Positions 3,019 to 63,117 of a stretch of 64,000 bases of DNA are shown here, piece after piece. The first letter of the stretch is position 1. The number at the start of each line of letters is the position of its first letter. A model generated the notes under the pieces. That model ran no database searches. It had not been told where the DNA came from and saw only the letters and a list, made by a program, of their open reading frames with translations. The position numbers and the translations under genes were made by a program. This DNA comes from Escherichia phage a20, in the sequence record OQ067374.1; one strand, 5' to 3'.

Positions 3019-3028
3019 TATGTATTCC

Positions 3029-3661
3029 TCACAGTACGTTAGTTACAAGGGTAATGATTTCTTTGGACACATTAGGGAAGTCAATGTAAGTATATTTACC
3101 ACCGATCTTAATCTTAACATCATTTTCAAGAGAAGTAAACAGCTTTGATTCAGTTTCTGACATGTTGTATGCAAAGATTCTAAGAGCGCCATCTCGACGA
3201 ATTTCGATCTGACGAATACCTAGAACTCGTTTTGCAAATCGAACTTCCAAGTTACTACGGTTTTCACCAATTTCTTTAACTTCAACTTTATCTTTAATAT
3301 TTTCAAAAACAAAGTTTGCTAGTTCATGCATTTCAGGAGTAACTCCACGTGCTTTTCTAGTGTTACGTTTCTGAAGAAGTTCTGGAGCATTTTCTTGGGC
3401 AAAGAGGTCTGCAGCTTTTTGGATAATATCCATTGCTTCGCCTGTTGCTATAAGTCCATCACCGGATTTTTCGACTAAACCTTTCTTAATCAATACACCA
3501 ATGTTAGAGTTAACAACCGATGCATTGTATTCCGCTTCTAGAGCTTCACGGACATTGGCAGCAGTGGTGAAGTTGTTCTTAATGATATAAACCATTATTG
3601 CAGCAGTTTTTTCATTCAGAGCGTTTTCAGAAGCTTTGATGATGTAAGTAACTTTAGACAT
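3029..3661 (-). CDS. motA: middle-transcription activator MotA
   Basis: 210 aa; MSKVTYIIKASENALNEKTAAIMVYIIKNNFTTAANVRE...NSNIGVLIKKGLVEKSGDGLI; T4 MotA is 211 aa with the same N-terminus; synteny between asiA and gene 52. Confidence 0.85.
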   Translation of the reverse strand: MSKVTYIIKASENALNEKTAAIMVYIIKNNFTTAANVREALEAEYNASVVNSNIGVLIKKGLVEKSGDGLIATGEAMDIIQKAADLFAQENAPELLQKRNTRKARGVTPEMHELANFVFENIKDKVEVKEIGENRSNLEVRFAKRVLGIRQIEIRRDGALRIFAYNMSETESKLFTSLENDVKIKIGGKYTYIDFPNVSKEIITLVTNVL

Positions 3662-3698
3662 TTTATTTCTCCAATTTGGTTGTTTTGTTTTGATAGGT

Positions 3699-3730
3699 CT
3701 ATAATATCATGTTTGAAGCATATGTAAACT
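3699..3730 (-). promoter_or_regulatory. sigma70-type early promoter for motA (-35 GTTTAC, ~17 nt spacer, -10 TATTAT read on minus strand)
   Basis: Plus-strand text ...ataggtctATAATAtcatgtttgaagcatatGTAAACt...; approx coordinates. Confidence 0.6.
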
Positions 3731-3737
3731 GTTTTGT

Positions 3738-3772
3738 GAGAAAAAAATGCACAAAAGGGAGCCGAAGCTCCC
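3738..3772 (-). terminator. rho-independent terminator after gene 52 (GC stem, UUCG loop, U-tract)
   Basis: gggagc-cgaa-gctccc hairpin preceded on plus strand by A-run (U-tract on minus-strand RNA). Confidence 0.7.
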
Positions 3773-3848
3773 TAATCATGTTTGTCTAACCAATACAGCC
3801 AAATCACTAGTACAGCTATTGCACCGAGAAATCCTAAGGCTAGGGCAC

Positions 3849-5174
3849 TCAAAGTGCCTCCAAGTCTTTAGTGTACTCTGTCACAACATCAGTAGACTTC
3901 CAATACTCATTTTCTTCTTTCTTAGCTTTAGCTTCTTCTGCTAGTTTACGTGCTTCGTCGGAAGTGATATGGAAGATGTTAAGACCTACCAGTTTATCGA
4001 CATGTTCTTTATACATTTCGATTTGTGCTAGCTCTTCAGTCAAAGCTTTACGAGTCTTGTCCTGAATCACAATTTCACCACTGATAACTTTTTTGATGAA
4101 GTGTGCCTTAGCAAAAGCAAGTTTAAATGCTTTTTCAGATTCAAGGATTTTGTTGTCAATACGTTTCTGAACGTAAGTCTTACGGACTTCAACAAAATCT
4201 TTGATTAAGTCCACTACGTTATCGTAGACAGCTAATTTACCCTTTTCATTAATCACTGTGATGTTTTGTGAACGACGTTCGATGAGACTAAAATCTTTCA
4301 TGATTTTTTCATGACGTAGCTCTTCATCATCAGGAAGCGAGTACTCTTTACGGAACTTCACCTTAAACCCAAAGCCGTGTTCACCACAATCATCTTCCCA
4401 AGAGATTAGACCTTTGTCTTCCAACGGGTCAAGAACCTTACTCACATACGTTTCACGGTCGAATTTATATGGGATTTCAGTTATCTGCATTTGAGTGCGA
4501 GATGTGAACTTATATGTTCCGTGAATCTCATAACGCCCATCAACTTCATGTACTTCGCCACGGAATTCCGGGAATTCAACTTTTGGCTTAGTGACATTTT
4601 TACCTTGAAGAGCTTGTAATACAGCCTTTTTTACCGATTTAAAACTATGAGGCAGAATATTTGTTGCGTAACCGGTTGCAATACCAGAAACACCATTCAA
4701 AAGAACTGTCGGAATAATAGGAAGATAGAATTTTGGTGGAATGTGTTCTTTATCTTCATGAGCTGGAGCATATTCAGTATCTTTATATACGTTATAGAAA
4801 TTTTTACTTACACGAGCAAAAATATAACGAGATGCTGCAGCTTTTTGGACTGTTCTAGAACCAAAGTTGCCCTGGCCATCTAACAGTGGATAGTTGTTGT
4901 TCCATGTGTTAGCCATTAATGCACCTGCATCTTGTGCAGAAGATTCACCGTGGTGATAACCTAAATCTGCAACACCGCCTGCAATTGACGCAAGTTTATG
5001 AAATTTTTCTTTATTACCACGAGCCAAATCTAATGCACGATGAACCACAAAACGTTGAACCGGTTTAAATCCATCAATCATGTTTGGGATTGCACGGTTT
5101 TCAACGGTGTACATCGCATATGCTAAGGCTTCGTTATCAATAATACTTTTTAGATTACGAGAATTCAATTGCAT
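3849..5174 (-). CDS. 52: DNA topoisomerase II medium subunit (GyrA-like, gp52)
   Basis: 441 aa; ...AYAMYTVENRAIPNMIDGFKPVQRFVVHRAL...; catalytic-Tyr region typical of type IIA topoisomerase A subunit; T4 gp52 is 442 aa. Confidence 0.93.
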   Translation of the reverse strand: MQLNSRNLKSIIDNEALAYAMYTVENRAIPNMIDGFKPVQRFVVHRALDLARGNKEKFHKLASIAGGVADLGYHHGESSAQDAGALMANTWNNNYPLLDGQGNFGSRTVQKAAASRYIFARVSKNFYNVYKDTEYAPAHEDKEHIPPKFYLPIIPTVLLNGVSGIATGYATNILPHSFKSVKKAVLQALQGKNVTKPKVEFPEFRGEVHEVDGRYEIHGTYKFTSRTQMQITEIPYKFDRETYVSKVLDPLEDKGLISWEDDCGEHGFGFKVKFRKEYSLPDDEELRHEKIMKDFSLIERRSQNITVINEKGKLAVYDNVVDLIKDFVEVRKTYVQKRIDNKILESEKAFKLAFAKAHFIKKVISGEIVIQDKTRKALTEELAQIEMYKEHVDKLVGLNIFHITSDEARKLAEEAKAKKEENEYWKSTDVVTEYTKDLEAL

Positions 5175-5517: not shown

Positions 5518-5964
5518 TTAGTAACTCTGCAGAATGAATTTGAAATTATCTGCCAGAAGACGGTTCATTTCAGTGAGTGTTTGATATTCTGATGTATGGT
5601 TGCGAGTGAATGCCAGAGCCAATTGTCCTTTACCGTAACCAGTGGTCAGTGGTTTCATGTTCTTAGCTGCAACAAAGATTACATCATATTCAATATTGTT
5701 AGTGCCCATAGTACGGGCTAGTTGCGAACGGCCTTGACGAATGTGAGAAAGAATTGCATCCAACCCTTGTTTAGAACGTTGACGTCCTACAAAGAATCGT
5801 GCTGCAACTTGACGCCAGTCAGATGAACCTTTAACAAAGAAGTAAAAACCTTCACGAGAACGAAACTCTTTAGAAACTTCAGAACCGTATTCGCCATTAC
5901 GAACTACTGCAACAACTTCACCGCCAACTGCCAGAAGGTCTTTACGAGTTAAATATTTGGACAT
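5518..5964 (-). CDS. ndd: nucleoid disruption protein Ndd
   Basis: 148 aa; ...[29 protein letters not shown]...[45 protein letters not shown]; recognised as T4 Ndd (151 aa). Confidence 0.85.
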
Positions 5965-6006
5965 GCTAATTTCCTCAATTGATTAATGTTTTTGTAATCC
6001 ATGAGA

Positions 6007-6040
6007 GCATTATACTCTGCTCTCAAGAGTTTGTACAATT
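6007..6040 (-). promoter_or_regulatory. early promoter for ndd (-35 TGTACA, 17 nt, -10 TATAAT) with -10 inside a short inverted repeat gagagc...gctctc
   Basis: Plus text gagagcATTATActctgctctcaagagtttGTACAatt. Confidence 0.6.
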
Positions 6041-6241
6041 TTATTCGGTTATATCAGAACGTTCAAAAAGCTCTTCAACAGTTAAACATTCGGTGTCATC
6101 CTCAATAAAGAATCGGGTCCAATACGTTGGGGCGATGCAGTTATGAGTTTGTCCGGCTATAGAAGCTACACGAATAAGCTGCTGACCATTATTCAGGACA
6201 AATTTTTCACCAATTTCAACATCTTTAAAAAGCTTAGCCAT
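6041..6241 (-). CDS. hypothetical small protein (ndd.x)
   Basis: ORF track, 66 aa; own promoter upstream. Confidence 0.5.
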   Translation of the reverse strand: MAKLFKDVEIGEKFVLNNGQQLIRVASIAGQTHNCIAPTYWTRFFIEDDTECLTVEELFERSDITE

Positions 6242-7645: not shown

Positions 7646-8593
7646 TTATTCTGCAAATAATTCAGTAACGTCTGAAATTACTTCATAACGACATGTACGC
7701 ATCTTAGCATCACCATAGTCAACCGGGATGGATACAACATCACGTGGATGAACTTTAACTTTCACAACTTTATCTGAGCTTGAACCAAAGTGGCGAATAT
7801 AAGATTTAGCACAAACGTGGAGACCGCGAGAACAGGTTTGAGTATCATCGTCGTTAACTCGAGTACGAGGCATTGAAACAACTTTACCAGGCGAGTTATC
7901 AAATGTACCACTATAACAGTCTAAATAGTCCTTACGAACTACTTTCCATGCATAGAAATGTCCGTCTTCAGTGATTTCAATATCATTTGCAACCAAGAAG
8001 TCGAATAAACGTTGTACAGCTTTTTCGCTCGGGTTTTCTAACAGGTTTTCAAGGAACGGCAGATAGAATTTAAAGTCTTCACCTTTTTCCATTGAATCAA
8101 TAATACGGTTAACCAGCCCTGAACGAATCTCTATACCTTGATAAAATAAACTACCACCTTCAATAGTAACATTACCATCAACAAACTTAGTAATAGCTTT
8201 CTTGATGTTAATAAGTTCGACAGCTTTACTAAGGTTTCCTGCGACCAGATTAGCTTTAATTTCTTCAAAATTTGCATGACTTGATGGAGTCGCATTGTAT
8301 GCTACGCGTCCTTCAATAATTGAAATAAATTTAGATGACGCGTTCCATACGATTTCAGGACGATGTCCGCCGATAATAGGTTCATCATTTTCTGGAACTT
8401 CTTCGATTACATAAGAGGCATCGTTTGCTTCAGGGACAACGCCTTCCGCTTTAAAATTCTTAACAATCTTACGAAGAGTATCTGTTGAAATGTCGAAGTA
8501 ATCGGCAATTTCTTTACGGGTCCATTTGCCTGATTCAACCAGGCCGTAAGCTTCTAACTGTTCTTCTTGGGACAAGCATTTGATATTATACAT
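7646..8593 (-). CDS. rIIB: rIIB membrane-associated lysis-inhibition protein
   Basis: 315 aa; MYNIKCLSQEEQ...GSLFYQGIEIRSGLVNRIIDSMEKGEDFKFYLPFLENLLENPSEKAVQRLFDFLVANDIEITEDGHFYAWKVV...; recognised as T4 rIIB (312 aa). Confidence 0.9.
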   Translation of the reverse strand: MYNIKCLSQEEQLEAYGLVESGKWTRKEIADYFDISTDTLRKIVKNFKAEGVVPEANDASYVIEEVPENDEPIIGGHRPEIVWNASSKFISIIEGRVAYNATPSSHANFEEIKANLVAGNLSKAVELINIKKAITKFVDGNVTIEGGSLFYQGIEIRSGLVNRIIDSMEKGEDFKFYLPFLENLLENPSEKAVQRLFDFLVANDIEITEDGHFYAWKVVRKDYLDCYSGTFDNSPGKVVSMPRTRVNDDDTQTCSRGLHVCAKSYIRHFGSSSDKVVKVKVHPRDVVSIPVDYGDAKMRTCRYEVISDVTELFAE

Positions 8594-8602
8594 AATGTTT
8601 CC

Positions 8603-10816
8603 TTATTTGGCCGCTTCCACGGCCTTCATGAATTTAACGATTTGAGCGACCTGTTCTTTTGAAAGAGTACCACGTCGTCCCATGTATTCTGACACAATAT
8701 GATAATTGGTTTCGAATTCAATAACCATTTTATCATCATTATCGTAAGCATTATCTTTAAGCTTATCGAAAATTTTAGCACACAATTCTAACTTCTTATT
8801 CAGTTCTCTGTTAGTAGCACCTGAGAATCGATTCCATCCCCAACGATTATTTACTGTTGAAAGTTTTGCAAAATCTTTACTGATTTCTTTGTTCTTAGAG
8901 CTAAAATACTTACTAAGGAAGTTAAGCTCTTCATTACGAGTAATATGATTCAAATAAGGCTGTGCTCTACGACTTGGTGATACATACTCATCATAATCCA
9001 CTTTATCAATTAGCGTAATATAGTCATTAATTGATTTTTCGAACAAGCATTCTACTTCACCAAGTTTACGAACTTTCTTAGCAATCTGTGGACGGACTAC
9101 AGTGAACTCTTTAATACCTGACAAATCAGCAATACGAGTCAAGAAATTAGAATCATAGTTCAACCAACCTTTATCTGCGTCAAGACATTCAGCGTTAGAA
9201 CGATTACGAATTACAACATAACCTTGAATCTCATCAGCTTTACCGGCCGGAATAAAGAGATCTTCTGATACCCAAACATCGTTTTCATTCTTAAAGAACC
9301 GATGAGCACTTGGGGATTTAGGACGAGGCTGCGATGAACGTTCTTTAACTTCAATCCATGGTTTAACTAATGCAAGAATTTCAGAGGTCTTATAAAATTT
9401 AAGGCTATCACCAGCGAAAATAACCTTTAATCGTTCCAGAAGTTTCATTGCAACTTCATCTTCCGGGTTAATGAATAATACGCTACTACCCCGTCCGGAA
9501 GGAACCTTATCAACGAGTGTTGATGCATCGGTGGAAGTCAAAGCATCGTTCAGAGCACGCATCATTGGTACGCGGCCTTTCACATCGTCAATAACAATAT
9601 CAATATGCTTACGACTAATACCTAGCAGGCTATTAATTGAAATAGTTGCAGACGAGCTTCCGCTTTCACGAATACGACGAAGTCGTGGATCTGAAACGAT
9701 ATCATATACAACGCCAAGGTTGCACCATTCAGGTCCCATTTTAAAACGTTTGTACAACTCAGAATAAGTTAGTTGTTCTTTAGAATATTTCAGTGATTCA
9801 ATATTAGAACCGGCTTTTTCCATGTATTTACGAGCAGAGTAACCAAGAGAATCGATTTCACGGAATACATGACGTGGATATTCACAATCAATCCATTTCT
9901 TAGAATCTTCAGCAAATAATTTTGCATCAATTTCTGCAACACGTTTATGAATATTTGCTACTGTACGTTTATCAAATGACAATGCTTCACGAGACGGGGC
10001 TACATCTAGTTCACCCATAGGGAATTTGATATAAGCTGTAGTGCATCGCGTCATCATCCATGTTTGTTCTTTAATAACACTTCCGATTGGATATACAATA
10101 CCACCATAAACAGCCATGATATTACCACGTTCACCCCATGGAGCTTCCTTGGCCAAATATACATCGTCAAATTCAGGAAAGTATTTAATATCTTTAACAC
10201 CACGAACTTCTGCAATATCGCCGAGAGGACGCATAACATAAGCAATTTCGGATGCGAACTTTTCAAAATCTTCTGGGTTAACCGGTACAACTACTTCTAC
10301 ACCCGTACGGTCATCGGGGCCCATCTTATCTACAAAGGTTGGCTTAATTTGTGGACCTGTGTCATCTTGGTAGATTACGTAACCACGAACTTCACCGTTG
10401 TGATAAGACGTAAGGTTAAACGTATCGGTATATGCTAGTGGAGCTTTAGAGCCGAGTCCGAATCCACCAATGAAATCGTTACTCGATGTTTTAGTTGAAG
10501 CAAAATACGAGTTATAGATTCCTGGCTCTTCGTCATTACCTCGAATGGTGAAATCACTCATACCAGGACCAAAGTCTCGAACTACAAAACGCGGGTCTAA
10601 ACGACCTGGAGCCTGAACAATAAACTTATCAGTGCAACCATTAAGAATTTGTCCATCGATACAGTTTGTGATTAATTCACGTACACAAGCCAATTCTTTG
10701 TTTGTATAAAGGTCATTAGACAAAATCTTATAAACTTTACTATTGCCTTGAATAGTGAATGCTGTGCTCTTACCGCCTGAACCAATAATCGTTTCTTTAG
10801 CCGTTTCAATAATCAT
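8603..10816 (-). CDS. rIIA: rIIA protein (GHKL ATPase-like N-terminal domain)
   Basis: 737 aa; N-terminus ...ELACVRELITNCIDGQ...VVRDFGPGMS...GGFGLGSKAP (histidine-kinase-like ATPase motifs); T4 rIIA is 725 aa; adjacent to rIIB. Confidence 0.9.
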   Translation of the reverse strand: MIIETAKETIIGSGGKSTAFTIQGNSKVYKILSNDLYTNKELACVRELITNCIDGQILNGCTDKFIVQAPGRLDPRFVVRDFGPGMSDFTIRGNDEEPGIYNSYFASTKTSSNDFIGGFGLGSKAPLAYTDTFNLTSYHNGEVRGYVIYQDDTGPQIKPTFVDKMGPDDRTGVEVVVPVNPEDFEKFASEIAYVMRPLGDIAEVRGVKDIKYFPEFDDVYLAKEAPWGERGNIMAVYGGIVYPIGSVIKEQTWMMTRCTTAYIKFPMGELDVAPSREALSFDKRTVANIHKRVAEIDAKLFAEDSKKWIDCEYPRHVFREIDSLGYSARKYMEKAGSNIESLKYSKEQLTYSELYKRFKMGPEWCNLGVVYDIVSDPRLRRIRESGSSSATISINSLLGISRKHIDIVIDDVKGRVPMMRALNDALTSTDASTLVDKVPSGRGSSVLFINPEDEVAMKLLERLKVIFAGDSLKFYKTSEILALVKPWIEVKERSSQPRPKSPSAHRFFKNENDVWVSEDLFIPAGKADEIQGYVVIRNRSNAECLDADKGWLNYDSNFLTRIADLSGIKEFTVVRPQIAKKVRKLGEVECLFEKSINDYITLIDKVDYDEYVSPSRRAQPYLNHITRNEELNFLSKYFSSKNKEISKDFAKLSTVNNRWGWNRFSGATNRELNKKLELCAKIFDKLKDNAYDNDDKMVIEFETNYHIVSEYMGRRGTLSKEQVAQIVKFMKAVEAAK

Positions 10817-16831: not shown

Positions 16832-17251
16832 TTATGCGAAAGCAGCTGGGCTATATTTTTTAATTTGGAATTCAGGAACTACCATGAACTGTCCAGCGAA
16901 AACGATGTTATAAAGCTTAACACCATCTTCTACCCAACGGTCGCTAATAAATCCGGCGATTTGCTTAGTTTTCCACGGTGTTCCATCAGTTGCCGCAGCA
17001 ATAGTGAATTCATGGTCTTTTTCAACAGAAACTGATCTGCATAGTCCCCATTTGAACGCTTTTTCTTCTGGTTCAATGAATTGGCTTTTAACGTAACCAA
17101 TGTTACCATCAGCGTCACGAACTTTAACTTCATTACGTCCAAAAACCGGATCGCTCACAGAAAGAACTTCAACCAACTTCCCGGCAACTTTAGAGCGAGA
17201 AGCAACAGATACATATACGTAATCACCTGTAGAGAGATTTACAATATTCAT
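16832..17251 (-). CDS. paralog A of a three-member tandem family (MotB-position)
   Basis: 139 aa; shares VSVASRSKVAGKLVEV, KAFKWGLC and GFISDRWVEDGVKLYNIVFAGQF with next gene. Confidence 0.6.
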   Translation of the reverse strand: MNIVNLSTGDYVYVSVASRSKVAGKLVEVLSVSDPVFGRNEVKVRDADGNIGYVKSQFIEPEEKAFKWGLCRSVSVEKDHEFTIAAATDGTPWKTKQIAGFISDRWVEDGVKLYNIVFAGQFMVVPEFQIKKYSPAAFA

Positions 17252-17260
17252 AATAATTCC

Positions 17261-17734
17261 TTAAGCTTTACGAGGAGACACATAGCGAGTGATTTCAGAT
17301 TCTTTAACAACTCGGAAGTCACCTAAGAATACGATATTGTATAACTTTTCACCATCTTCAACCCATTGGTCACTAATGAAGCCACACATAGTATCAGTTT
17401 TGCTTGGATAACCGTATTCGTCGATGAAATCAAATTCTTTATCAGTCTGGAATTCAACACCTTTACACAAGGCCCATTTGAACTGTACATTAGGCTCTGT
17501 GGATTCAACTTTTTCTCTTGAAGCAAGAGCACCACTCACAGGAGTTTCCAAAAATTTAGGACTTACGTAAGCGTACTGAGTTTCAGTTTTTCCAGAACTA
17601 GGAATGATTCGAACTTTAACTTCTTTAACACGACCAGTACCATTAGTACGAAGTCCTACCACTTCAACTAGACGACCTGCAGCTTTAGAACGAGATGCAG
17701 ACGATACACGCTTAATTTCACCAATAGTAATCAT
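17261..17734 (-). CDS. paralog B of tandem family (MotB-position)
   Basis: 157 aa; VSSASRSKAAGRLVEV...FKWALC...GFISDQWVEDGEKLYNIVFLGDF. Confidence 0.6.
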   Translation of the reverse strand: MITIGEIKRVSSASRSKAAGRLVEVVGLRTNGTGRVKEVKVRIIPSSGKTETQYAYVSPKFLETPVSGALASREKVESTEPNVQFKWALCKGVEFQTDKEFDFIDEYGYPSKTDTMCGFISDQWVEDGEKLYNIVFLGDFRVVKESEITRYVSPRKA

Positions 17735-17761
17735 AATTTCTCTCTTTGTTTAAATTGAATT

Positions 17762-17792
17762 CACTATACTCCATCCATCCTTGGATGTACAA
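17762..17792 (-). promoter_or_regulatory. early promoter (-35 TGTACA, 17 nt, -10 TATAGT)
   Basis: Plus text tcACTATActccatccatccttggaTGTACAac. Confidence 0.6.
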
Positions 17793-17794
17793 CA

Positions 17795-18289
17795 TTAATT
17801 AAGGATATTAACCACAGCACTACGTGGAACTACACTAAAATCACCTGCATGAACAACGTTCAGAAGTTCAACACCATTTTCAATCCATTGGTCAGTTACC
17901 CATCCATTTACTGGACCGGCGAACGGTCGACGAATTGAAACATATTTACACAACAAATCAGTAGGCTCAATAGGCTTAATCAGAGTACCGTACATACAAG
18001 CGATATCCATATCAATACAGATGTCTTTAACGGGTTCTACTTCTTCAATCAACAGTTCAAAGTCGGTGCTTGGAAGGGCGGTAGTAGAAATTGTACCGTA
18101 TGAATTTTTAATTTCTAAGAATAACCAAGGGCCTTCAGCTTGTTTGATAAAGTTAACAATAGTGAAACTATTACCTTGAGTGGCACCTAAAATTTCACAA
18201 AACTTTTCATAAGCTCGCACTGAAGCACCGTACCAGTTGATTTGTTTTTCGTCTTTCAGGATGTAAGTAGCCGTAGTATTGATATTCAT
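17795..18289 (-). CDS. paralog C of tandem family (shares C-terminal module only)
   Basis: 164 aa; ...GWVTDQWIENGVELLNVVHAGDFSVVPRS. Confidence 0.55.
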   Translation of the reverse strand: MNINTTATYILKDEKQINWYGASVRAYEKFCEILGATQGNSFTIVNFIKQAEGPWLFLEIKNSYGTISTTALPSTDFELLIEEVEPVKDICIDMDIACMYGTLIKPIEPTDLLCKYVSIRRPFAGPVNGWVTDQWIENGVELLNVVHAGDFSVVPRSAVVNILN

Positions 18290-18318: not shown

Positions 18319-18351
18319 AGATTATACTCCAACCATCCTTGGTTGTAAACT
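18319..18351 (-). promoter_or_regulatory. early promoter; 30-mer attatactccaaccatccttggttgtaaac repeated near-identically at ~60483 and ~61503
   Basis: Plus text gATTATActccaaccatccttggttGTAAAC. Confidence 0.6.
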
Positions 18352-18355
18352 GGTT

Positions 18356-19033
18356 TTATCGCTGTTTTACACTTAACGGGTCAGGATTCTCAGGGACATC
18401 TTCAAGGCCAAGCGCATAACGCTGAGCATATTTTAACATCAAAATATCTTTAGCACAATCATGAATACTATCATGGGCAACGAATCCTTTTAGCGTACCC
18501 ATCGGTAATGGACACATACTTAATCCTCGTGTCAAAGAGTAAGCTTCGATTGCCGTACGAATATCACGTTGAGCCCAGAATTTAACAGGTTCTAATTTAT
18601 CAGTATCAATATCTGGTTCAAGAACACCTTCATCACGATAGAGGTCACGAATCAAATCGACCAAGATCGGGAAGTCAAAGCTCATACCACGGCACCACAT
18701 CTGTGATTTCCATTGGTCAACTTTATTAGCTCGGCAATAGTCTAAAAAGATTTTAATGCCTTCAAGCGTAGTGACATCGTCTTCAGACGGAGCCAAGTTT
18801 TTACGCGCTTCAACCGATTGTTCTTTCCACCATTTCATAGTTGATTTAGCGAAAACTCGCTTCCCTTTCTGAGAAGCTAAATTAAATTTAATTCGCTTAC
18901 CTCGTTGAACAAGTTCTTCAAATGATTCAACAACTTCAGGGTCGGAATTATATGCAATAACCGCAAGGTCAATAACAGCCGCTTTTGATGTATTGCCGAA
19001 TGTTTCAAAGTCTATAATAACATCAGTGCTCAT
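18356..19033 (-). CDS. dexA: exonuclease A (DEDDh 3'-5' exonuclease)
   Basis: 225 aa; VIIDFETFG (Exo I motif) and ...HDSIHDCAKD; T4 DexA 227 aa; synteny next to dda. Confidence 0.85.
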   Translation of the reverse strand: MSTDVIIDFETFGNTSKAAVIDLAVIAYNSDPEVVESFEELVQRGKRIKFNLASQKGKRVFAKSTMKWWKEQSVEARKNLAPSEDDVTTLEGIKIFLDYCRANKVDQWKSQMWCRGMSFDFPILVDLIRDLYRDEGVLEPDIDTDKLEPVKFWAQRDIRTAIEAYSLTRGLSMCPLPMGTLKGFVAHDSIHDCAKDILMLKYAQRYALGLEDVPENPDPLSVKQR

Positions 19034-19042
19034 AATTTTCTC

Positions 19043-20356
19043 TCAAATAAAATGGACGTCAAAACGACCACGAGTCGTGCCGACATACAATAACTGTTTA
19101 GCTAATTCTGAATCAGCATAATGGATACACGGTGTATAAACAAAGGCCGTGTCAACAGACATACCCTGGGCCTTATGGAAGGTTGATACTGGTAGTGCCT
19201 TCACCTTAGTGAACATACGTTTAGCATCCCAGAATTCGCTCCATGGAGCTTTACCACCTTTATTCCAGAATTTGTATGTTTCTGCAGTCTTAGCCAAAAA
19301 CAAATTGAATTTATAAAGCTCTTCTTCAGAAGAAATAACCTTTATATCTTCGCGGATATATTCTTCATCATCCCCATATGTTTCTACTGTAAGATTCCAG
19401 TATCGTATCATATATTCGCCTGAAACACCACGTGCTTTAACGAATGTAGACGTTTCTACAGCATCTCGAATACGAACGAATTGCCCGTTATTGAAAAGCA
19501 TTTCGGTCATATTTTTACCATCTAGCTTATATGTCTTAGTAAATGGCTCTTGTAGAACAATGACTTCGTCTTTAATAAATGGTTTTTCTGTTTCAAGAAG
19601 TTTTCGGCGAATAATTGAATTTAACTTGTCCACCGACTTATTTGTGAATGCCATCATTCGATTTTCGAAAAGGTCTTCAGGAGTTTTAACGACGTTAAAA
19701 TAGTTCATCATATACGATTTAAGGTCTGTATATCCATGAACACCGTGTCCATCAACTACTTTATCGTAAATCCATTTGCCATTACGAATATCAGTCGCAA
19801 CATCAATAATTGGTGCATTGCTACGTTTAACTTCTGTAAGGTTGCATTGCACGAAGTCTTTGTGAGTGAAGAAAGGACTTAGATACGCAGTTGATTCGCC
19901 TGGGTCTACCGGACGAATCTGGCATCGGTCGCCGATTCCAATTACTGTACACCATTTAGGGATACTAGCTAACATTATTTTAAACAGAGAACGGTCACAC
20001 ATTGACGCTTCATCAAATAACAGTACACGGCACAAGGCTAAGTCGGGAACCTTTTTCTGTTCAAACAATACGTTTTCTTCGTATGTAGTTGGGTTGATTT
20101 TAAGAATGCTATGAATAGTCGATGCTTCTTGACCTGCAAGTTTGCTTAGAACCTTTTTAGCAGCATGTGTAGGGGCTGCTAAAATAATACCTGATTCTCC
20201 AGAAGAAATAAGGGCTTCAACGATGAATCTAGTAAGGGTTGTTTTACCTGTACCAGCAGGCCCATTAATAGTTACGTGATGTTTCTTTTCTTTAATAGCG
20301 TTCATAACAACGTTGAAGGCGTTTTTCTGGCCTTCAGTCAAATCATCAAATGTCAT
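19043..20356 (-). CDS. dda: Dda DNA helicase (SF1B)
   Basis: 437 aa; Walker A GPAGTGKTT, ...LLFDEASM (Walker B); T4 Dda 439 aa. Confidence 0.9.
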   Translation of the reverse strand: MTFDDLTEGQKNAFNVVMNAIKEKKHHVTINGPAGTGKTTLTRFIVEALISSGESGIILAAPTHAAKKVLSKLAGQEASTIHSILKINPTTYEENVLFEQKKVPDLALCRVLLFDEASMCDRSLFKIMLASIPKWCTVIGIGDRCQIRPVDPGESTAYLSPFFTHKDFVQCNLTEVKRSNAPIIDVATDIRNGKWIYDKVVDGHGVHGYTDLKSYMMNYFNVVKTPEDLFENRMMAFTNKSVDKLNSIIRRKLLETEKPFIKDEVIVLQEPFTKTYKLDGKNMTEMLFNNGQFVRIRDAVETSTFVKARGVSGEYMIRYWNLTVETYGDDEEYIREDIKVISSEEELYKFNLFLAKTAETYKFWNKGGKAPWSEFWDAKRMFTKVKALPVSTFHKAQGMSVDTAFVYTPCIHYADSELAKQLLYVGTTRGRFDVHFI

Positions 20357-58793: not shown

Positions 58794-59199
58794 TATTTTT
58801 CCTTTCATCGATTAAATATGCAACACCAAATACAATACATGTAATAAAACCTGTGATACCGATAGAGAACATCAACACTGTACCAAAGAACCAAATCAGG
58901 TTATCTTTAGTAGTTTGTTTGATATCCATCTCACGAATTTCTATAGCTATCGTATCACCTTTATTCAGAAGCGTATAAAACGACGGTGATACACGCCTGT
59001 CAAAAACTCGTCCTTGCTCATCTTTATAGACGGCAATAAATTCTAATTTAGAATATTTTCCTGTAGATTGACCTGAAATTAATTCCACTACCTCCACAGG
59101 AATTACTTTAGTTTCCATGTAAGTATTCTGGCTGTTCCAAATGAATGGAATGATGGCAAAAACTAAAGCTGCAATAAAACAACGAAGGCTATATCTCAT
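58786..59199 (-). CDS. membrane protein (N-terminal and C-terminal TM segments)
   Basis: ORF track, 137 aa. Confidence 0.5.
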   Translation of the reverse strand: MRYSLRCFIAALVFAIIPFIWNSQNTYMETKVIPVEVVELISGQSTGKYSKLEFIAVYKDEQGRVFDRRVSPSFYTLLNKGDTIAIEIREMDIKQTTKDNLIWFFGTVLMFSIGITGFITCIVFGVAYLIDERKNNV

Positions 59200-59504
59200 T
59201 ATAATGTTCTCTCAAATTTGTGGAAGCATTTACGGCATTTCAATTTCAAGTTATCAGTGGTCCAGTTAACCAGTTGGACTTGGATAGTTCCACATTCTGG
59301 GCATGGATGTTTTGCTGCCGATTTGGCAGCATTTTCACGTCGTTCAACCATTTTCATGATTTCGTTCCATGCCGGAGGAACGAACTCTTCTTCACCGTGG
59401 ATTTTATCTCGCTGAACAAATTCAATCTTTGAACTATCATCAATAAACTTAACCAAGTCATGATTAGTGCTCATATCAATATCCTCTAAAAGACGTAGTT
59501 TCAT
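59199..59504 (-). CDS. zinc-ribbon protein
   Basis: 101 aa; CPECG...CRKC. Confidence 0.5.
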   Translation of the reverse strand: MKLRLLEDIDMSTNHDLVKFIDDSSKIEFVQRDKIHGEEEFVPPAWNEIMKMVERRENAAKSAAKHPCPECGTIQVQLVNWTTDNLKLKCRKCFHKFERTL

Positions 59505-60454
59505 TATAAAACCTCAATGGCATTTCGTAAACCATCCGCTTTCGCATTCAGAGCTTTTAACGATTTAGTTTGTTCTGCAATCTGGGCTTCGACTTCTTTC
59601 AGACGAGATTTGAGATATTCGCGTTCTTCTCTTAAGTTATCAACTTTTTCTGCTTTAGGCTCTTTAATAGGCTTAGGTTTATACGTATTAGGGTTCTTCA
59701 GTTTAATTTGAATTCGAGAACTGAATAACATTGAACCGTTATCTTCGGTTTCACTGTGTATTTCTACCACGTCCATGATTCTTAACATCATGCGAAGTTT
59801 ATAAGACAGCGAACGAACGGTTTTATTGTGCTTCTTAATTTCTTCAGCTTTCATGGTGCCGAGATTACGTGAGTAGTAATAAGGAACCTGAATATCAATT
59901 GATAATGATGCGGTACCATTACCGGTTGGTTTGAACACTGCAGTAACCCAATCTTTAGCATGAACTGTATTTGTACGATCATCGCCGCCTGTGAATAATT
60001 TACGAGAATGTTTAAAAAGCATATTCACTTGGTTATTGAATTCACAAGCAAATTTATCAGCAAATTTAGTTTCAGGAATGGTAGTTAACCAATCAGCCAA
60101 ATGAGTCTTTTTAACATCATTAACAATAGTGAATTCAACCAAATCGGTTTTAGATGTCACAGATTTAATAAAGCTCGGCTTCATAAAGTTTTTAATGTTA
60201 TCGCGAGCTACAGTAGAAGATAATAAACGAGAACGTTTGAACCATTGAAGCAACGTCCCTAACGAATGAGAATACGCATTTTGAGTATCTTTACAGATAT
60301 GATTTTCTTGGCCTATGTATGTACCAAAATCGCGAAGAATACCACTTACTACATCTCGGTGTGGAACATCAAATCCTAGTGCACCAGAAGCACGTTGGGC
60401 ATGAACGTTAGCGATAAGACCTGCAAAGTATTCAATGTAATGTGAACGTGTCAT
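59504..60454 (-). CDS. hypothetical protein with C-terminal coiled-coil (member 1 of three adjacent ~320-aa proteins)
   Basis: 316 aa; C-terminus ...EEREYLKSRLKEVEAQIAEQTKSLKALNAKADGLRNAIEVL. Confidence 0.55.
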   Translation of the reverse strand: MTRSHYIEYFAGLIANVHAQRASGALGFDVPHRDVVSGILRDFGTYIGQENHICKDTQNAYSHSLGTLLQWFKRSRLLSSTVARDNIKNFMKPSFIKSVTSKTDLVEFTIVNDVKKTHLADWLTTIPETKFADKFACEFNNQVNMLFKHSRKLFTGGDDRTNTVHAKDWVTAVFKPTGNGTASLSIDIQVPYYYSRNLGTMKAEEIKKHNKTVRSLSYKLRMMLRIMDVVEIHSETEDNGSMLFSSRIQIKLKNPNTYKPKPIKEPKAEKVDNLREEREYLKSRLKEVEAQIAEQTKSLKALNAKADGLRNAIEVL

Positions 60455-60480
60455 AATATTTTCCTCTCGTTAAGATAGAT

Positions 60481-60513
60481 TCATTATACTCCAACCATCC
60501 TTGGTTGTAAACT
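60481..60513 (-). promoter_or_regulatory. early promoter; near-identical copy of the 18319 promoter 30-mer
   Basis: Plus text tcATTATActccaaccatccttggttGTAAAC. Confidence 0.6.
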
Positions 60514-60516
60514 ATT

Positions 60517-61476
60517 TTATGATTTTAACGCATTCATTGCGTTAAAAAGTTTAGAATACTGCAACTGGAGATTCGTTACAACACTTTGAGCATCACGAAG
60601 CTTAGCTTGTGCTTTGTCAAGTTCAACAGACAGTTGGTCCATAGTGGCCTTGATTTGATTGTAACGGTAATCTTCGGCCGGAAGAAGGTCATTAGAAACA
60701 TTTAGTTTTACTGCAGACAGTTTGCACACATTTGGCAAACCTTTAAACATTGATTTACCCGAAGTAGAATAAGCACTTAGGACTTCGGCCTGTTCAATTG
60801 GGGTCCCAGTAAGCGATGCTTCAAACAATGCATTTTCCTTTTTAAGATTTTGATAATATTCGGAGTCTTTGTGCCACCATGGCGCAGGAACCTTTTTACC
60901 AATAGATACACGAGCCTGGATAGCGATATGGCCCTTATTCTTGATAGGGTCGATAATATTAAGCTCACGAGAATAAATTGCTTTAATCTGGTGGATATTA
61001 TCACCTAAAACTTCCAACGCTTGGTGGAATACACGAGCAACGTTATCATTCTTAGGTTTATACGTAAGAGTGAACTCGTTCTCACTGATAACCATGATTT
61101 CTAACTTATCGTAAGTATATTTCAAATGTTTCATGTTAATTGCTTGAGGACGAATACGAGAAGCAATGGCCATCAGATTGTTAAGGTTATTCCGGAACTG
61201 CTTAGCGAAATATTGTCCTTCACCACCAATACAAAAATTACGAAGTTTCTGTTTGGCTAATAAACGGCTGAACTCACCATTTTTAATGAACTCTTTAACG
61301 GGTGTGTTAGTAACGCATTCAAATTGAGTAAACTTACGAGAAGTAATCCCATAATATGAACAGATTTCCTCAATCTCTTCAGGAGTCTTTACAGGCATAC
61401 GGATAGGATTAGGTCCTGGAGTATATGCGTTCGAGGTAAATTCTTTGATAAGTTCTCTACGTGTAATAAAAGCCAT
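60517..61476 (-). CDS. hypothetical protein with C-terminal coiled-coil (member 2)
   Basis: 319 aa; C-terminus ...MDQLSVELDKAQAKLRDAQSVVTNLQLQYSKLFNAMNALKS. Confidence 0.55.
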   Translation of the reverse strand: MAFITRRELIKEFTSNAYTPGPNPIRMPVKTPEEIEEICSYYGITSRKFTQFECVTNTPVKEFIKNGEFSRLLAKQKLRNFCIGGEGQYFAKQFRNNLNNLMAIASRIRPQAINMKHLKYTYDKLEIMVISENEFTLTYKPKNDNVARVFHQALEVLGDNIHQIKAIYSRELNIIDPIKNKGHIAIQARVSIGKKVPAPWWHKDSEYYQNLKKENALFEASLTGTPIEQAEVLSAYSTSGKSMFKGLPNVCKLSAVKLNVSNDLLPAEDYRYNQIKATMDQLSVELDKAQAKLRDAQSVVTNLQLQYSKLFNAMNALKS

Positions 61477-61500
61477 TTTATATTCCTCATGTTGAAAAAT

Positions 61501-61533
61501 TTATTATACTCCAACCATCCTTGGTTGTACATC
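61501..61533 (-). promoter_or_regulatory. early promoter; third copy of the repeated promoter (one substitution in -35: TGTACA)
   Basis: Plus text ttATTATActccaaccatccttggttGTACAtc. Confidence 0.6.
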
Positions 61534-62527
61534 ATTCCTTAAGAAGTTTTACTACTTGAATAAGATTAGCTCGTTCTGTTTTATTTTTACCGTTTAAGCC
61601 TGCTAATCGTGAGATTTCATCGTCAGTCTGTTGAATAGTTACATTAAGTTCGTTAATCAAAGCTTCAAAGTATTTGATTTGCTCAGCATGTTTTGATTCA
61701 AATTTCTGAACCGGAATAACGTCTTGATTCAGTTCATCAATAAGGTCTTTAAGAGCATCTTCTTGGTTGATATCATATTCAACTTCTTTTATTTCTTCAA
61801 CGAGCTCGTCTTTATATCTAACGTCTTTTAGTCCTGGAGCTGGTCCTAAAATCTCTTCTTTAAGAGTACAAACATATCCAATACGATATCCAGTGCCGTC
61901 TCGCTTGATATCAACTTCGTCGATAAATCCACAATGTTTAAGACCAGAGCCGATTAGGTTAAAATATCCTTGACGTCGTCCTTCAAACGTTACACGAACT
62001 ACTAAGACGGTTTTGCCACTGACCTTTTGAAGCTCACATTTATAAAAGTCTGTTGAACCTGAATAACATGGATGAGTTTTAAAGTTCATCTGACGATCTA
62101 GACCCATTTGTAAGCGTGCTGATACGGCCATAAAACGTGTTTGGTTCTCGTTAAGATGAGCAACAATCCATTTCAAAGGCATTTTACACTGTTCACGACC
62201 GAACAAATCAGTACGTCCTAGATTACGCAGGATGTTGTTAGAGTTAATCATCGACAGAACGTTAAGTTTATTCAGCGCGCTGAAGATTCCATCAGCCATT
62301 GATTTTCCGTAACCTTTACACGCTTTAATAAGCGCTCGCGGCAGATTAGTATAGATTTCAGACGGCATATGAAAATCAAATTTACTAGTCAGTAATTGAT
62401 GAACTTGGATAGCAATTTGCTCATAATTAAGTGCTCTGCGATCATTATGGTCTTTAAACCACACTTTAATCTGTGAAGCACATAAACCGTTAATTTCATG
62501 TTTTACCGCATCAGATGTAATGCTCAT
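61532..62527 (-). CDS. hypothetical protein with C-terminal coiled-coil (member 3)
   Basis: 331 aa; C-terminus ...EALINELNVTIQQTDDEISRLAGLNGKNKTERANLIQVVKLLKE. Confidence 0.55.
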   Translation of the reverse strand: MSITSDAVKHEINGLCASQIKVWFKDHNDRRALNYEQIAIQVHQLLTSKFDFHMPSEIYTNLPRALIKACKGYGKSMADGIFSALNKLNVLSMINSNNILRNLGRTDLFGREQCKMPLKWIVAHLNENQTRFMAVSARLQMGLDRQMNFKTHPCYSGSTDFYKCELQKVSGKTVLVVRVTFEGRRQGYFNLIGSGLKHCGFIDEVDIKRDGTGYRIGYVCTLKEEILGPAPGLKDVRYKDELVEEIKEVEYDINQEDALKDLIDELNQDVIPVQKFESKHAEQIKYFEALINELNVTIQQTDDEISRLAGLNGKNKTERANLIQVVKLLKE

Positions 62528-62589
62528 AACTATTTCCTCAGATTGAATTGGAACTCAAAACCATTATAACCCGTCCTTGGGTAAAGCGT

Positions 62590-63117
62590 TTATGCGTGAA
62601 CCGTCTTTAAACGTTCTTCAAATTTCCGAAGAGTACTAATACGTTCTGCTTTCTGTTTTGTATAGTTTGCAATACGTTCTGAAGTGAGAGCGTATCGTTC
62701 GTTTACTGTTTCTTTCATGAAGTCAGGGATTTCACGAGAAGCTTTAATTTCATCAAACTTATCGAGTACTGCCTGGTCTTCAGCGATTAAATTTTCGTAC
62801 ATCTCGATATCTTTCTTGATAAACTCGATATCTTCCTGGGTTACTTTGGATAAACGAGACGCTTTATCCTTTTTGTACTGCTCGTTAGTTTCACGAGACC
62901 AGAATAATGTACGTTTTTTGTTAGTGTTTTTGTAGACTTCCACAATTCCAACTGAATCGATGATAGCAATCCAATTCCAGCGAGATTTGAAAATCTGACC
63001 TCCATCCACGGTAATCTCGTTACCATAAGCAACGTCATTAAAGAACTTGCTTTGTGCTTCAGATTTAAATTTACCGTCGTTATAATTTACCAGGTTGAAA
63101 ATATCTTTAGCGTTCAT
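62590..63117 (-). CDS. hypothetical protein
   Basis: ORF track, 175 aa; SD GGAGGT. Confidence 0.5.
   Translation of the reverse strand: MNAKDIFNLVNYNDGKFKSEAQSKFFNDVAYGNEITVDGGQIFKSRWNWIAIIDSVGIVEVYKNTNKKRTLFWSRETNEQYKKDKASRLSKVTQEDIEFIKKDIEMYENLIAEDQAVLDKFDEIKASREIPDFMKETVNERYALTSERIANYTKQKAERISTLRKFEERLKTVHA

What the first reader, a model, noticed from the sequence alone, without database searches (positions are those of the whole stretch)
59504..62527. Three adjacent ~320-aa proteins, each ending in a ~50-aa coiled coil, two with near-identical promoters
The three consecutive genes (316, 319 and 331 aa) have unrelated-looking globular N-terminal regions but all end in a heptad-like K/E/Q/L-rich helix. 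The promoters upstream of the first two are the same 30-mer that also drives gene C at 18319. This could be a modular family sharing an oligomerisation or targeting tail, and the repeated promoter could mediate recombinational shuffling.
Basis: seen in the sequence. Interest (0 to 1): 0.55.

Follow-up and report, generated by a model that had tools for sequence, protein, structure and literature searches.

The report
T4 nrdC.3/.5/.6 paralogues on promoter cassettes
The three genes are a T4-like coliphage's copies of the accessory genes nrdC.3, nrdC.5 and nrdC.6: very diverged relatives of one another with fast-changing bodies and conserved coiled-coil-like tails, one of them in the family of a known T4 anti-defence protein, and each sits behind a repeated promoter at which related phages have precisely gained or lost a gene.

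Summary
Three minus-strand genes (316, 319 and 331 aa) each end in a heptad-patterned helix. A 27-nt promoter segment is identical upstream of the first two and at 18.3 kb.

The window is a Mosigvirus, a T4-like coliphage. The genes correspond to T4 nrdC.3 (A), nrdC.5 (B, Pfam DUF7235) and nrdC.6 (C).

The N-terminal regions are not unrelated. Profile comparisons link NrdC.3, NrdC.4 and NrdC.5 over their full length. NrdC.6 joins them more weakly, through a shared motif, a pairwise profile match (P 4e-4) and a Foldseek hit. This is a tandem array of diverged paralogues, not different heads on one tail. Among orthologues the tails are mostly better conserved than the bodies.

No function was tested here. 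T4 NrdC.5 is published as overcoming the Dsr1 sirtuin defence, so an anti-defence or host-targeting role is the best inference.

The recombination idea is supported. Of 153 related phages, 21 lack B, and the two junctions I read carry one hybrid promoter copy. A second cassette at 17.8-18.3 kb behaves the same way. This matches the published PeSL concept for T4-like phages.

The promoters also contain a conserved hairpin (CC-AAGGAY-GG) with a covarying stem, between -35 and -10. That placement differs from published PeSLs, and its role is unknown.

Overall this is mostly known biology with two modest new points.

The parts
59504..60454 (-). Gene A, 316 aa: orthologue of T4 nrdC.3
   Evidence: ORF. 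56% identity over the full length to T4 NrdC.3, E 2e-119. Matches phrog_1435. Close homologues carry the precomputed Pfam label PF26897.
60517..61476 (-). Gene B, 319 aa: NrdC.5-type protein (Pfam DUF7235). A dispensable cassette, absent from 21 of 153 relatives.
   Evidence: PF23882 at 411 bits against a cut-off of 30. T4 NrdC.5 hits the same model at 421 bits. 25% identity to T4 NrdC.5, E 4e-9. Absence in relatives.
61532..62527 (-). Gene C, 331 aa: NrdC.6-type protein
   Evidence: 30-33% identity to T4/slur11 NrdC.6. Homologues carry the precomputed label PF26899. AF2 model.
59507..59656 (-). Tail of A (aa 267-316): uninterrupted heptad pattern
   Evidence: Coordinates converted from residue numbers.
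60520..60672 (-). Tail of B (aa 269-319): uninterrupted heptad pattern, predicted as a single helix
61538..61687 (-). Tail of C (aa 281-330): a 29-residue heptad segment, a conserved Gly-containing turn, then a second helix
60483..60511 (-). Promoter P_A: T4 early type, TTTACA-N17-TATAAT, with hairpin CAACC-AAGGAT-GGTTG (60492-60507) in the spacer
   Evidence: A promoter is annotated at the equivalent site in phage NBG1.
61503..61531 (-). Promoter P_B: TGTACA-N17-TATAAT, with the same 27-mer and hairpin (61512-61527). Its -35 overlaps the stop codon of C.
62563..62590 (-). Promoter-like site upstream of C: a MotA-box-like CGCTTTA, 13 nt, then TATAAT (T4 middle type, inferred). The hairpin ACCC-AAGGAC-GGGT lies at 62569-62582.
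   Evidence: The middle-promoter assignment is by consensus only.
18321..18349 (-). Third exact copy of the hairpin promoter, upstream of a 164-aa MotB-like gene
17763..17791 (-). Diverged copy of the hairpin promoter (stem CATCC/GGATG, a compensatory change), upstream of a 157-aa MotB-like gene

Best explanation
The three genes are the Mosigvirus versions of the T4 accessory genes nrdC.3, nrdC.5 and nrdC.6. They form a tandem array of very diverged paralogues of a family seen at sequence level only in T-even-type enterobacterial phages. Only the helical N-terminal domain (residues 1-141) and the terminal helices of the C model are confidently predicted. The small alpha/beta region and the linker between them are low-confidence, so the architecture in that part is tentative. 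Each gene has its own early or middle promoter.

Inferred function: they are host-directed accessory proteins, most likely counter-defence factors. The fast-evolving body would set target specificity, and the conserved tail would mediate oligomerisation or a shared interaction. This rests on T4 NrdC.5, which belongs to the same Pfam family as B and has been shown to neutralise the Dsr1 sirtuin defence.

Shown by comparison: the identical 27-bp promoter copies flanking B are the place where B is gained or lost among relatives. The mechanism would be homologous recombination between direct repeats, as in the published PeSL model.
For: Identity and orthology:
- The window belongs to a Mosigvirus.
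- BLASTP to T4 proteins assigns A, B and C to NrdC.3, NrdC.5 and NrdC.6.
- B and T4 NrdC.5 both hit DUF7235 far above the cut-off.

Paralogy:
- hhalign F3-F4: probability 97.5%, E 8e-12.
- hhalign F4-F5: probability 86%, E 5e-6. Both hold with the tails removed.
- NrdC.6 profile against the NrdC.3/4/5 profile: P 4.3e-4 over 112 columns.
- Shared motifs are visible in the alignment: SRLLS..L.NF, FR.N...L...A.R and a terminal L..A...LK.
- Foldseek of the C model hits ~300-aa proteins of other T4-like phages.

Tails:
- Heptad scans single out the tails.
- Tail versus body identity among orthologues is 60 vs 27%, 57 vs 23%, 41 vs 24% and 64 vs 54%. One pair shows almost no difference (B vs VR7 NrdC.5, 25 vs 21%).

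Function:
- T4 nrdC.5 expressed from a plasmid restores plating of a deletion phage on Dsr1-carrying cells (PMC9391042).

Cassette behaviour:
- 21 of 153 relatives have C directly next to A. The two junctions I read, in F2 and ESCO47, each carry one hybrid promoter copy. F2's promoter core is identical to the window's 27-mer; ESCO47's differs at two bases.
- The 164-aa gene at 17.8-18.3 kb is missing in AV115, also with a hybrid promoter at the junction.
- PeSL literature.
Against: - No function was tested for any of the three proteins.
- B is only 25% identical to T4 NrdC.5, so the target may differ.
- The link of C to the others is weak at sequence level (hhalign probability 34%, local comparisons P about 0.01).
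- The Foldseek TM-scores are low (0.2-0.5), and the C model is only moderately confident (pLDDT 68).
- The B model failed (pLDDT 40).
- Oligomerisation of the tails is inferred from heptad pattern only. In the monomer model C's tail folds as a helical hairpin.
- A precise single-repeat junction cannot tell deletion from insertion.
- Other rearrangements at this locus did not use the promoters (ACG-C40, Manna).
Confidence: 0.6

Rival explanations
1. This is the first reader's model: unrelated globular heads have been joined by recombination to a common coiled-coil tail module, which acts as an oligomerisation or targeting signal.
For: - Pairwise BLASTP finds no similarity between the bodies.
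- The extreme C-terminal motif L..A...LK is shared.
- A natural in-frame chimera exists. Salmonella phage Manna carries roughly the first 265 residues of NrdC.6 fused to residues 251-333 of NrdC.4.
Against: - Profile comparisons align the bodies colinearly and significantly without the tails, for NrdC.3-NrdC.4 and NrdC.4-NrdC.5.
- The order of secondary-structure elements is the same in the B and C models, although the B model is poor.
- Tail sequences differ as much between paralogues as the bodies do (24% vs 23% for A against T4 NrdC.4). A recently shared module would be more similar than that.
Confidence: 0.12
2. The identical promoter segments are kept alike by selection on promoter or hairpin function, or by gene conversion. 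They play no causal part in gene gain and loss, and the coincidence with indel ends reflects only that genes are bounded by promoters.
For: - The hairpin core CC-AAGGAY-GG with a covarying stem is conserved across four genera and in both early- and middle-type promoters. That argues for function rather than recent copying.
- Other deletions at the locus used microhomology inside genes.
- T4 is known to recombine at 2-10 bp microhomologies (PMC9391042).
Against: - Two independent indels have both ends inside the repeat and leave one hybrid copy. Its left half matches the upstream promoter and its right half the downstream one.
- Other early promoters in the window have unrelated spacers, so promoter function alone does not need this sequence.
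- Recombination between PeSL copies was shown experimentally in RB49/phi1.
Confidence: 0.2
3. The C-terminal helices are not intermolecular coiled coils. They pack back on the protein's own body or form an intramolecular helical hairpin, so no oligomerisation module exists.
For: - In the C model the tail is two helices (281-307, 313-330) separated by a conserved Gly-containing turn.
- The heptad score used here is home-made and cannot tell an amphipathic helix from a coiled coil.
Against: - A and B have 50 uninterrupted heptad residues with no helix breaker.
- The tail is separated from the body by a low-confidence linker.
- The weak Pfam, NCBIfam and PDB matches of the tails are all to coiled-coil proteins.
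Confidence: 0.2
4. The proteins are thioredoxin-like or nucleotide-metabolism proteins, as many GenBank records label them.
For: The product name 'thioredoxin' appears on these genes in many phage records.
Against: - Pfam and NCBIfam give no thioredoxin or redox-domain hit for any of them.
- The label appears on every gene of the nrdC.1-nrdC.11 block, including an obvious nucleotidyltransferase neighbour. I therefore read it as carried over from the gene names.
Confidence: 0.02

Closest known systems
T4 NrdC.5 (Pfam DUF7235), reported to counteract the Dsr1 sirtuin defence (Srikant et al. 2022, eLife, PMC9391042)
   Same: B hits the same Pfam model over its full length (411 bits, against 421 bits for T4 NrdC.5). 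It has the same length class, the same locus between nrdC and nrdC.8, and a similar tail sequence (41% identity).
   Different: Overall identity is only 25%. B has its own early promoter, whereas in T4 nrdC.5 follows nrdC.6 directly with no promoter-like sequence between them. Activity against Dsr1 has not been tested for B, and B is dispensable in 21 of 153 relatives.
T4 nrdC.3, nrdC.4 and nrdC.6 (uncharacterised early genes of T4)
   Same: A is 56% identical to NrdC.3 and C is 30-33% identical to NrdC.6. Gene order is the same, and so is the hairpin-promoter type.
   Different: This phage has no nrdC.4, and its nrdC.7 homologue sits next to nrdC instead. C is about 36 aa longer than Tequatrovirus NrdC.6, through a longer linker.
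PeSLs, promoter-early stem-loop cassettes of T4-like phages (Arbiol et al. 2010, PMC2839356; Comeau et al. 2014, PMC4122927)
   Same: Strong sigma-70-like early promoter plus a stem-loop, repeated between accessory ORFs of a hyperplastic region. The copies coincide with insertions and deletions between close relatives. The promoter consensus TTTACW-N17-TAYWAT reported for T4/PST fits P_A exactly.
   Different: Here the stem-loop lies inside the promoter, between -35 and -10, or between the MotA-like box and -10. In the PST legend it lies just upstream of the promoter. In RB49/phi1 its placement relative to an AT-rich region is mentioned. The loop sequence AAGGAY is invariant across four genera. 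The hairpin is short (5-6 bp) with no U-run, so a terminator role is doubtful.
DSAD1, the anti-DSR2 protein of Bacillus phages
   Same: It is a phage protein that blocks a SIR2-domain NAD-depleting defence (abstracts listed).
   Different: I did not compare its sequence or structure with A, B or C. It comes from a different phage group and acts on a different defence protein, so any link is functional analogy at most.

Membership tests
Pfam PF23882 (DUF7235, the NrdC.5 family), for gene B | Score above the curated gathering threshold over the full model | tested here: met
   411.4 bits against a cut-off of 30; residues 15-318 match model positions 1-307. T4 NrdC.5 scores 420.6 bits.
Anti-Dsr1 counter-defence proteins, for gene B | Restores phage growth on cells expressing Dsr1 | not testable with these tools
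   Shown only for T4 NrdC.5 (PMC9391042).
T4 NrdC.3 orthologues, for gene A | Full-length sequence similarity and the same position upstream of nrdC.2 | tested here: met
   56% identity over 316 aa, E 2e-119. The next gene downstream (59199-59504) is 51% identical to NrdC.2. The Pfam label PF26897 is seen only on homologues, because the model is absent from the local Pfam copy.
T4 NrdC.6 orthologues, for gene C | Full-length sequence similarity and a position downstream of nrdC.8 | tested here: met
   30-33% identity over about 92% of the length, E down to 1e-27 by tblastn. nrdC.8 (83% identical) lies directly upstream.
One NrdC.3/4/5/6 superfamily (proposed here) | Significant profile-profile similarity of the bodies, tails excluded | tested here: inconclusive
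   Met for NrdC.3-NrdC.4 (E 5e-12) and NrdC.4-NrdC.5 (E 4e-6). For NrdC.6 the evidence is only P about 0.01 locally, P 4.3e-4 with larger alignments, and one Foldseek hit at E 1.6e-3 to a 308-aa Tequatrovirus protein that I take to be NrdC.3.
Coiled coil | At least four uninterrupted heptads with hydrophobic a/d positions in a predicted helix | tested here: met
   A 267-316, B 269-319 and C 281-309 are the only segments above the 99th percentile of shuffles. Helices are predicted there. The score is home-made, not COILS or MARCOIL.
Coiled coil | Forms an intermolecular helical bundle (oligomer) | not testable with these tools
   Only monomer prediction was available.
PeSL (promoter-early stem-loop cassette) | Sigma-70-like early promoter in an intergenic space of a hyperplastic region | tested here: met
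   P_A is TTTACA-17-TATAAT and P_B is TGTACA-17-TATAAT, among the best-scoring sites in the region. The total number of consensus sites in the region equals chance, so the scan alone proves nothing. A promoter is annotated at the same site in NBG1.
PeSL (promoter-early stem-loop cassette) | Stem-loop just upstream of the promoter that acts as a terminator | tested here: not met
   The hairpin lies inside the spacer, not upstream. It is weak, at -7 to -9 kcal/mol, and its z-scores against shuffles are near zero. No T-run follows it. Covariation nevertheless supports a real structure.
PeSL (promoter-early stem-loop cassette) | Copies coincide with indels between close relatives | tested here: met
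   The B cassette and the 164-aa MotB-like cassette each leave one hybrid copy at the junctions examined.
PeSL (promoter-early stem-loop cassette) | Recombination between copies yields excised mini-circles | not testable with these tools
   This needs inverse PCR on infected cells, as in PMC2839356.

The most novel reading that the evidence does not exclude
NrdC.3, NrdC.4, NrdC.5 and NrdC.6 are one expanding family of counter-defence proteins. Each paralogue's fast-evolving body disables a different host immune protein (Dsr1 for NrdC.5). The conserved coiled-coil tails let the paralogues assemble into homo- or hetero-oligomers. The promoter-embedded CC-AAGGAY-GG hairpin is a dedicated signal, for RNA processing or for recombination, that makes each gene an exchangeable expression cassette across T-even genera.
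Probability: 0.2. Interest if true: 0.65.

Novelty: new member of a known kind. Interest (0 to 1): 0.38.

Why it matters
One member of this gene block, T4 nrdC.5, is a proven counter-defence gene whose mechanism is unknown. If its neighbours are diverged paralogues with conserved tails and fast-changing bodies, then nrdC.3, nrdC.4 and nrdC.6 become direct candidates for further anti-defence functions. It would also suggest how the family is built, with a variable binding body and a constant tail. The precise promoter-bounded loss of B gives a clean natural example of the PeSL shuffling model in a genus where it had not been described in the papers I read. The B-less phages are also natural mutants for host-range tests.

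Tried and rejected
Searches and predictions that gave little:
- A single-sequence search of B against 1.84 billion representatives returned only two close relatives. T4 NrdC.5 is too distant at that library size.
- Word-indexed homologue searches returned only the query's own subfamilies, even with a mixed NrdC.3/4/5 alignment.
- AlphaFold2 of B with a mixed alignment failed (pLDDT 39.7). I used it only for the order of secondary-structure elements and the tail helix.
- Profile searches of PDB sequences gave nothing significant.
- The afdb50 library was not available.
- NCBIfam gave nothing.

Tests that were negative or weak:
- RNA folding energies of the promoter hairpins are no better than shuffles. 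The case for the hairpin rests on covariation alone.
- The syntenic 325-aa Acinetobacter phage protein Acj9p122 shows no sequence-level link to the family. I inferred that it is the Foldseek hit E5EPQ6 from its length and organism only.

Interpretation rejected:
- The 'thioredoxin' annotation in GenBank records looks like a label carried over from the gene names.
Full report
**What the window is**

The 3.3 kb around the finding matches more than 130 Escherichia and Shigella phage genomes at 95-99% identity over its full length. The best hits are assigned to Mosigvirus, species mar005P1. All genes here lie on the minus strand. The neighbours are nrdD, endonuclease VII and the nrdC glutaredoxin. 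This is therefore the nrdC.1-nrdC.11 accessory block of a T4-like genome, which I compared with the T4 reference annotation.

**Checking the observation**

- **ORFs.** The three ORFs are at 59504-60454 (316 aa, called A here), 60517-61476 (319 aa, B) and 61532-62527 (331 aa, C).
- **No pairwise similarity.** BLASTP between them finds nothing.
- **Heptad tails.** I scored each protein with a simple 28-residue heptad score and 200 shuffles. In each protein exactly one segment exceeds the 99th percentile of shuffles, and it is the C-terminal tail: A 267-316, B 269-319 and C 281-309.
- **Comparison with the rest of the window.** Among 65 minus-strand ORFs of at least 100 aa, only five reach this score. 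Three are these genes. The other two are a 562-aa and a 339-aa ORF at 47-50 kb. By size and position I take them to be gp46 (Rad50-like, so a natural positive control) and gp47, but I did not verify this.
- **Predicted helices.** AlphaFold2 places helices on the tails: C 281-307 and 313-330, and B 267-318.
- **Promoter repeat.** The 27-mer TACAACCAAGGATGGTTGGAGTATAAT is present exactly at 60483-60509, 61503-61529 and 18321-18347. A diverged copy lies at 17763-17789. None is expected by chance.

**What the genes are**

BLASTP against the T4 proteins gives:

| Window gene | T4 counterpart | Identity | E-value |
|---|---|---|---|
| A | NrdC.3 | 56%, full length | 2e-119 |
| B | NrdC.5 | 25% over 308 aa | 4e-9 |
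| C | NrdC.6 | 30% | 2e-19 |

The flanking genes match nrdC.2, nrdC.7, nrdC.8 and nrdC.9. B and T4 NrdC.5 both hit Pfam DUF7235 (PF23882) at more than 400 bits, against a cut-off of 30. Homologues of A and C carry the precomputed labels PF26897 and PF26899. By tblastn the families occur only in T-even-type enterobacterial phages. NrdC.6-type genes are found in 741 records, NrdC.3-type in 653, T4-type NrdC.5 in 582, NrdC.4 in 554 and Mosigvirus-type NrdC.5 in 132. The 'thioredoxin' product names in many records have no support from any domain search. I read them as labels carried over from the gene names.

**Are the bodies unrelated?**

No, at least not for A and B. I built small family alignments from ten phages of four genera.

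- **NrdC.3 against NrdC.4.** hhalign gives probability 97.5%, E 8e-12, full length.
- **NrdC.4 against NrdC.5.** hhalign gives probability 86%, E 5e-6.
- **Tails removed.** Removing the last 65 residues leaves both results unchanged.
- **Shared motifs.** A joint alignment shows an N-terminal M-x-TR, FK-SRLLS-x5-L-NF, FA-x-FR-N-x3-L-x3-A-R, and a terminal L-x2-A-x3-LK.

The link to NrdC.6, and so to C, is weaker. Local comparisons give P about 0.01. Larger alignments give P 4.3e-4 over 112 colinear columns covering the same motifs. The AlphaFold2 model of C has pLDDT 68, with a good helical domain at 1-141. Searched against BFVD, it hits its own family and then ~300-aa uncharacterised proteins of other T4-like phages. 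These come from Pectobacterium PM2, Acinetobacter 133, Acj9 and Acj61, and Klebsiella Mineola. It also hits a 308-aa protein of the Tequatrovirus fPS-65, which has the length of NrdC.3. The E-values run from 7e-7 to 2e-3, but the TM-scores are low. The B model is poor, yet it shows the same order of elements as C: helices, a beta-hairpin, a helix, a strand, a linker and a long terminal helix.

I conclude that A and B are diverged paralogues, and that C probably is too.

**Tails against bodies**

Among orthologues the tail is better conserved than the body in four of five pairs:

| Pair | Tail identity | Body identity |
|---|---|---|
| C vs slur11 NrdC.6 | 60% | 27% |
| C vs VR7 NrdC.6 | 57% | 23% |
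| B vs T4 NrdC.5 | 41% | 24% |
| A vs T4 NrdC.3 | 64% | 54% |
| B vs VR7 NrdC.5 | 25% | 21% |
| A vs T4 NrdC.4 (paralogues) | 24% | 23% |

This fits a constant interaction or oligomerisation element attached to a fast-evolving, target-binding body. It does not fit a tail module recently shared between different heads.

**Function**

Nothing here tests function. The only experimental anchor is T4 nrdC.5. A T4 deletion clone could not plate on ECOR17, or on MG1655 carrying the ECOR17 dsr1 gene. Expressing nrdC.5 from a plasmid restored plating (PMC9391042). I found no later paper on the mechanism or on the other family members. No solved structure or known fold matches the family. My best inference is that the array encodes host-directed accessory proteins, probably counter-defence factors. 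I put about 45% on that functional part.

**The promoters and gene gain and loss**

P_A (TTTACA-N17-TATAAT) and P_B (TGTACA-N17-TATAAT) fit the T4/PST early-promoter consensus TTTACW-N17-TAYWAT quoted by Comeau et al.. They are among the best consensus matches in the region. A promoter is annotated at the P_A site in phage NBG1. Upstream of C the sequence reads CGCTTTA-N13-TATAAT. By my own knowledge of the MotA-box consensus this looks like a T4 middle promoter, but that is an inference.

- **The B cassette.** Of 153 related records, 21 have C directly next to A. I read two of those junctions. In phage F2 the junction is the 3' end of C, then the P_B left half through TATAAT, then the P_A right half (CTATCTTAACGAGAGG...). 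ESCO47 has the same hybrid arrangement, with two base differences in the promoter core. In the B-containing records listed, the junction query splits at the start of the promoter.
- **A second cassette.** At the second locus, the 164-aa gene between the 18.3 kb and 17.8 kb promoter copies is missing in phage AV115. The junction there is again a hybrid promoter.

Two independent indels with both ends inside the repeat are what recombination between direct repeats predicts. This is the PeSL model, for which recombination between copies and excised mini-circles were shown in RB49/phi1. Not every rearrangement at this locus uses the promoters. ACG-C40 has an out-of-frame deletion from within nrdC.5 to within nrdC.3. 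Salmonella phage Manna has an in-frame NrdC.6::NrdC.4 fusion at a DEI microhomology.

**A hairpin inside the promoters**

All five copies of CCAAGGAYGG in the window lie in these minus-strand intergenic promoters, where 0.07 copies are expected. The same core occurs in the equivalent promoters of Tequatrovirus, Dhakavirus and Gaprivervirus, in both early- and middle-type contexts. The flanking bases change in a compensatory way: ACC/GGT, TCC/GGA, GCC/GGC, CCC/GGG and CCAC/GTGG.

On 12 distinct sequences, 91.7% of cells pair, against 65.7% in shuffles. There are 14 double changes against 4.7 expected (0 of 500 shuffles reach this). One pair shows all four Watson-Crick types, and slid registers score far lower. 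The predicted stability is modest and no better than shuffles. The sequences are few and related, so this is suggestive rather than proven.

The hairpin lies between -35 and -10, unlike the stem-loops described for PeSLs. In the early-type copies it is followed by GGAG. From my own knowledge GGAG is the RegB cleavage motif; I did not test this. What the hairpin does is unexplained.

**Verdict**

The finding is real but mostly ordinary. The genes are known T4-family accessory genes and the promoter cassettes are of a known kind. The idea of unrelated heads on a common tail is not. Three modest points appear new relative to the papers and family databases I could search:
- the grouping of NrdC.3, NrdC.4, NrdC.5 and probably NrdC.6 into one family with conserved tails;
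- the clean promoter-bounded polymorphism of B;
- the covarying hairpin inside the promoter.

Noticed in passing
window 60492-60507, 61512-61527, 62569-62582, 18330-18345 and 17772-17787 (minus strand); also L002, L004-L006 and L009-L012: A conserved hairpin with an invariant CC-AAGGAY-GG core and a covarying outer stem lies inside promoter spacers, in both early and middle types. It is found across Mosigvirus, Tequatrovirus, Dhakavirus and Gaprivervirus. In the early-type copies GGAG follows it. Its role is unknown: RNA processing, RNA stability, a DNA-level signal, or something else.
   Followed up: partly
window 16832-18289 (minus strand), downstream of the 437-aa (19043-20356) and 225-aa (18356-19033) ORFs that I take to be dda and dexA: A second tandem array of three paralogues (164, 157 and 139 aa), annotated in relatives as MotB-like transcriptional regulators. 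They share a C-terminal motif, D-[QR]-W-[IV]-E-[ND]-G...VVP. The first two are driven by the same hairpin promoter. Phage AV115 lacks the 164-aa gene and has a hybrid promoter at the junction.
   Followed up: partly
L010 (Salmonella phage Manna) 5215-6252: A natural in-frame chimera. Roughly the first 265 residues of NrdC.6 are fused to residues 251-333 of NrdC.4 at a shared DEI microhomology, with nrdC.5 and most of nrdC.4 deleted.
   Followed up: partly
L002 (T4) 8067-8894, compared with L009 (slur11) 2962-3849: The reference T4 NrdC.6 (275 aa) ends in ...EELIFLFNNMMMKFSDYLD. Close relatives (295 aa) continue ...EELNISIQQYDDEIFRLSGL...LLKS, and the T4 DNA just downstream still encodes that ending. 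A frameshift in T4 has probably cut off the tail of its NrdC.6.
   Followed up: no
L003 (ACG-C40) 5805-6213: A deletion from codon ~68 of nrdC.5 to codon ~245 of nrdC.3 removes nrdC.4. It leaves an out-of-frame remnant of the nrdC.3 tail, and the breakpoints are not at promoters.
   Followed up: partly
L008 (moha) 5699-5990; also L004 5733-5948 and L005 5742-5951: Some relatives carry a 62-71-aa ORF whose sequence looks like a small two-helix membrane protein, between nrdC.6 and nrdC.5; this window lacks it. In moha about 22 nt identical to the 3' end of B (AATGAATGCATTAAAATCATAA) are repeated just upstream of P_B. This may be a remnant of an earlier duplicate.
   Followed up: no
L013 (Acinetobacter phage Acj9) 36836-37813: A 325-aa protein lies in the syntenic position, between gene 49 and nrdC.10, and has a heptad-like C-terminal tail by eye. 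By length and organism it is probably the Foldseek hit E5EPQ6 (E 1.2e-5 to the C model). It shows no sequence-level similarity to any NrdC.3-6 profile.
   Followed up: partly
window, minus strand: 63172, 53234, 52934, 29524, 28213, 6810, 6298 and 6037 (positions of -35 hexamers): Many other early-type promoters in the window carry inverted repeats that bracket the -10 hexamer, for example GGTCTAT...ATAGACC and TAGGACT...AGTCCTA. Promoter-embedded hairpins therefore seem to be a general habit of this genome.
   Followed up: no
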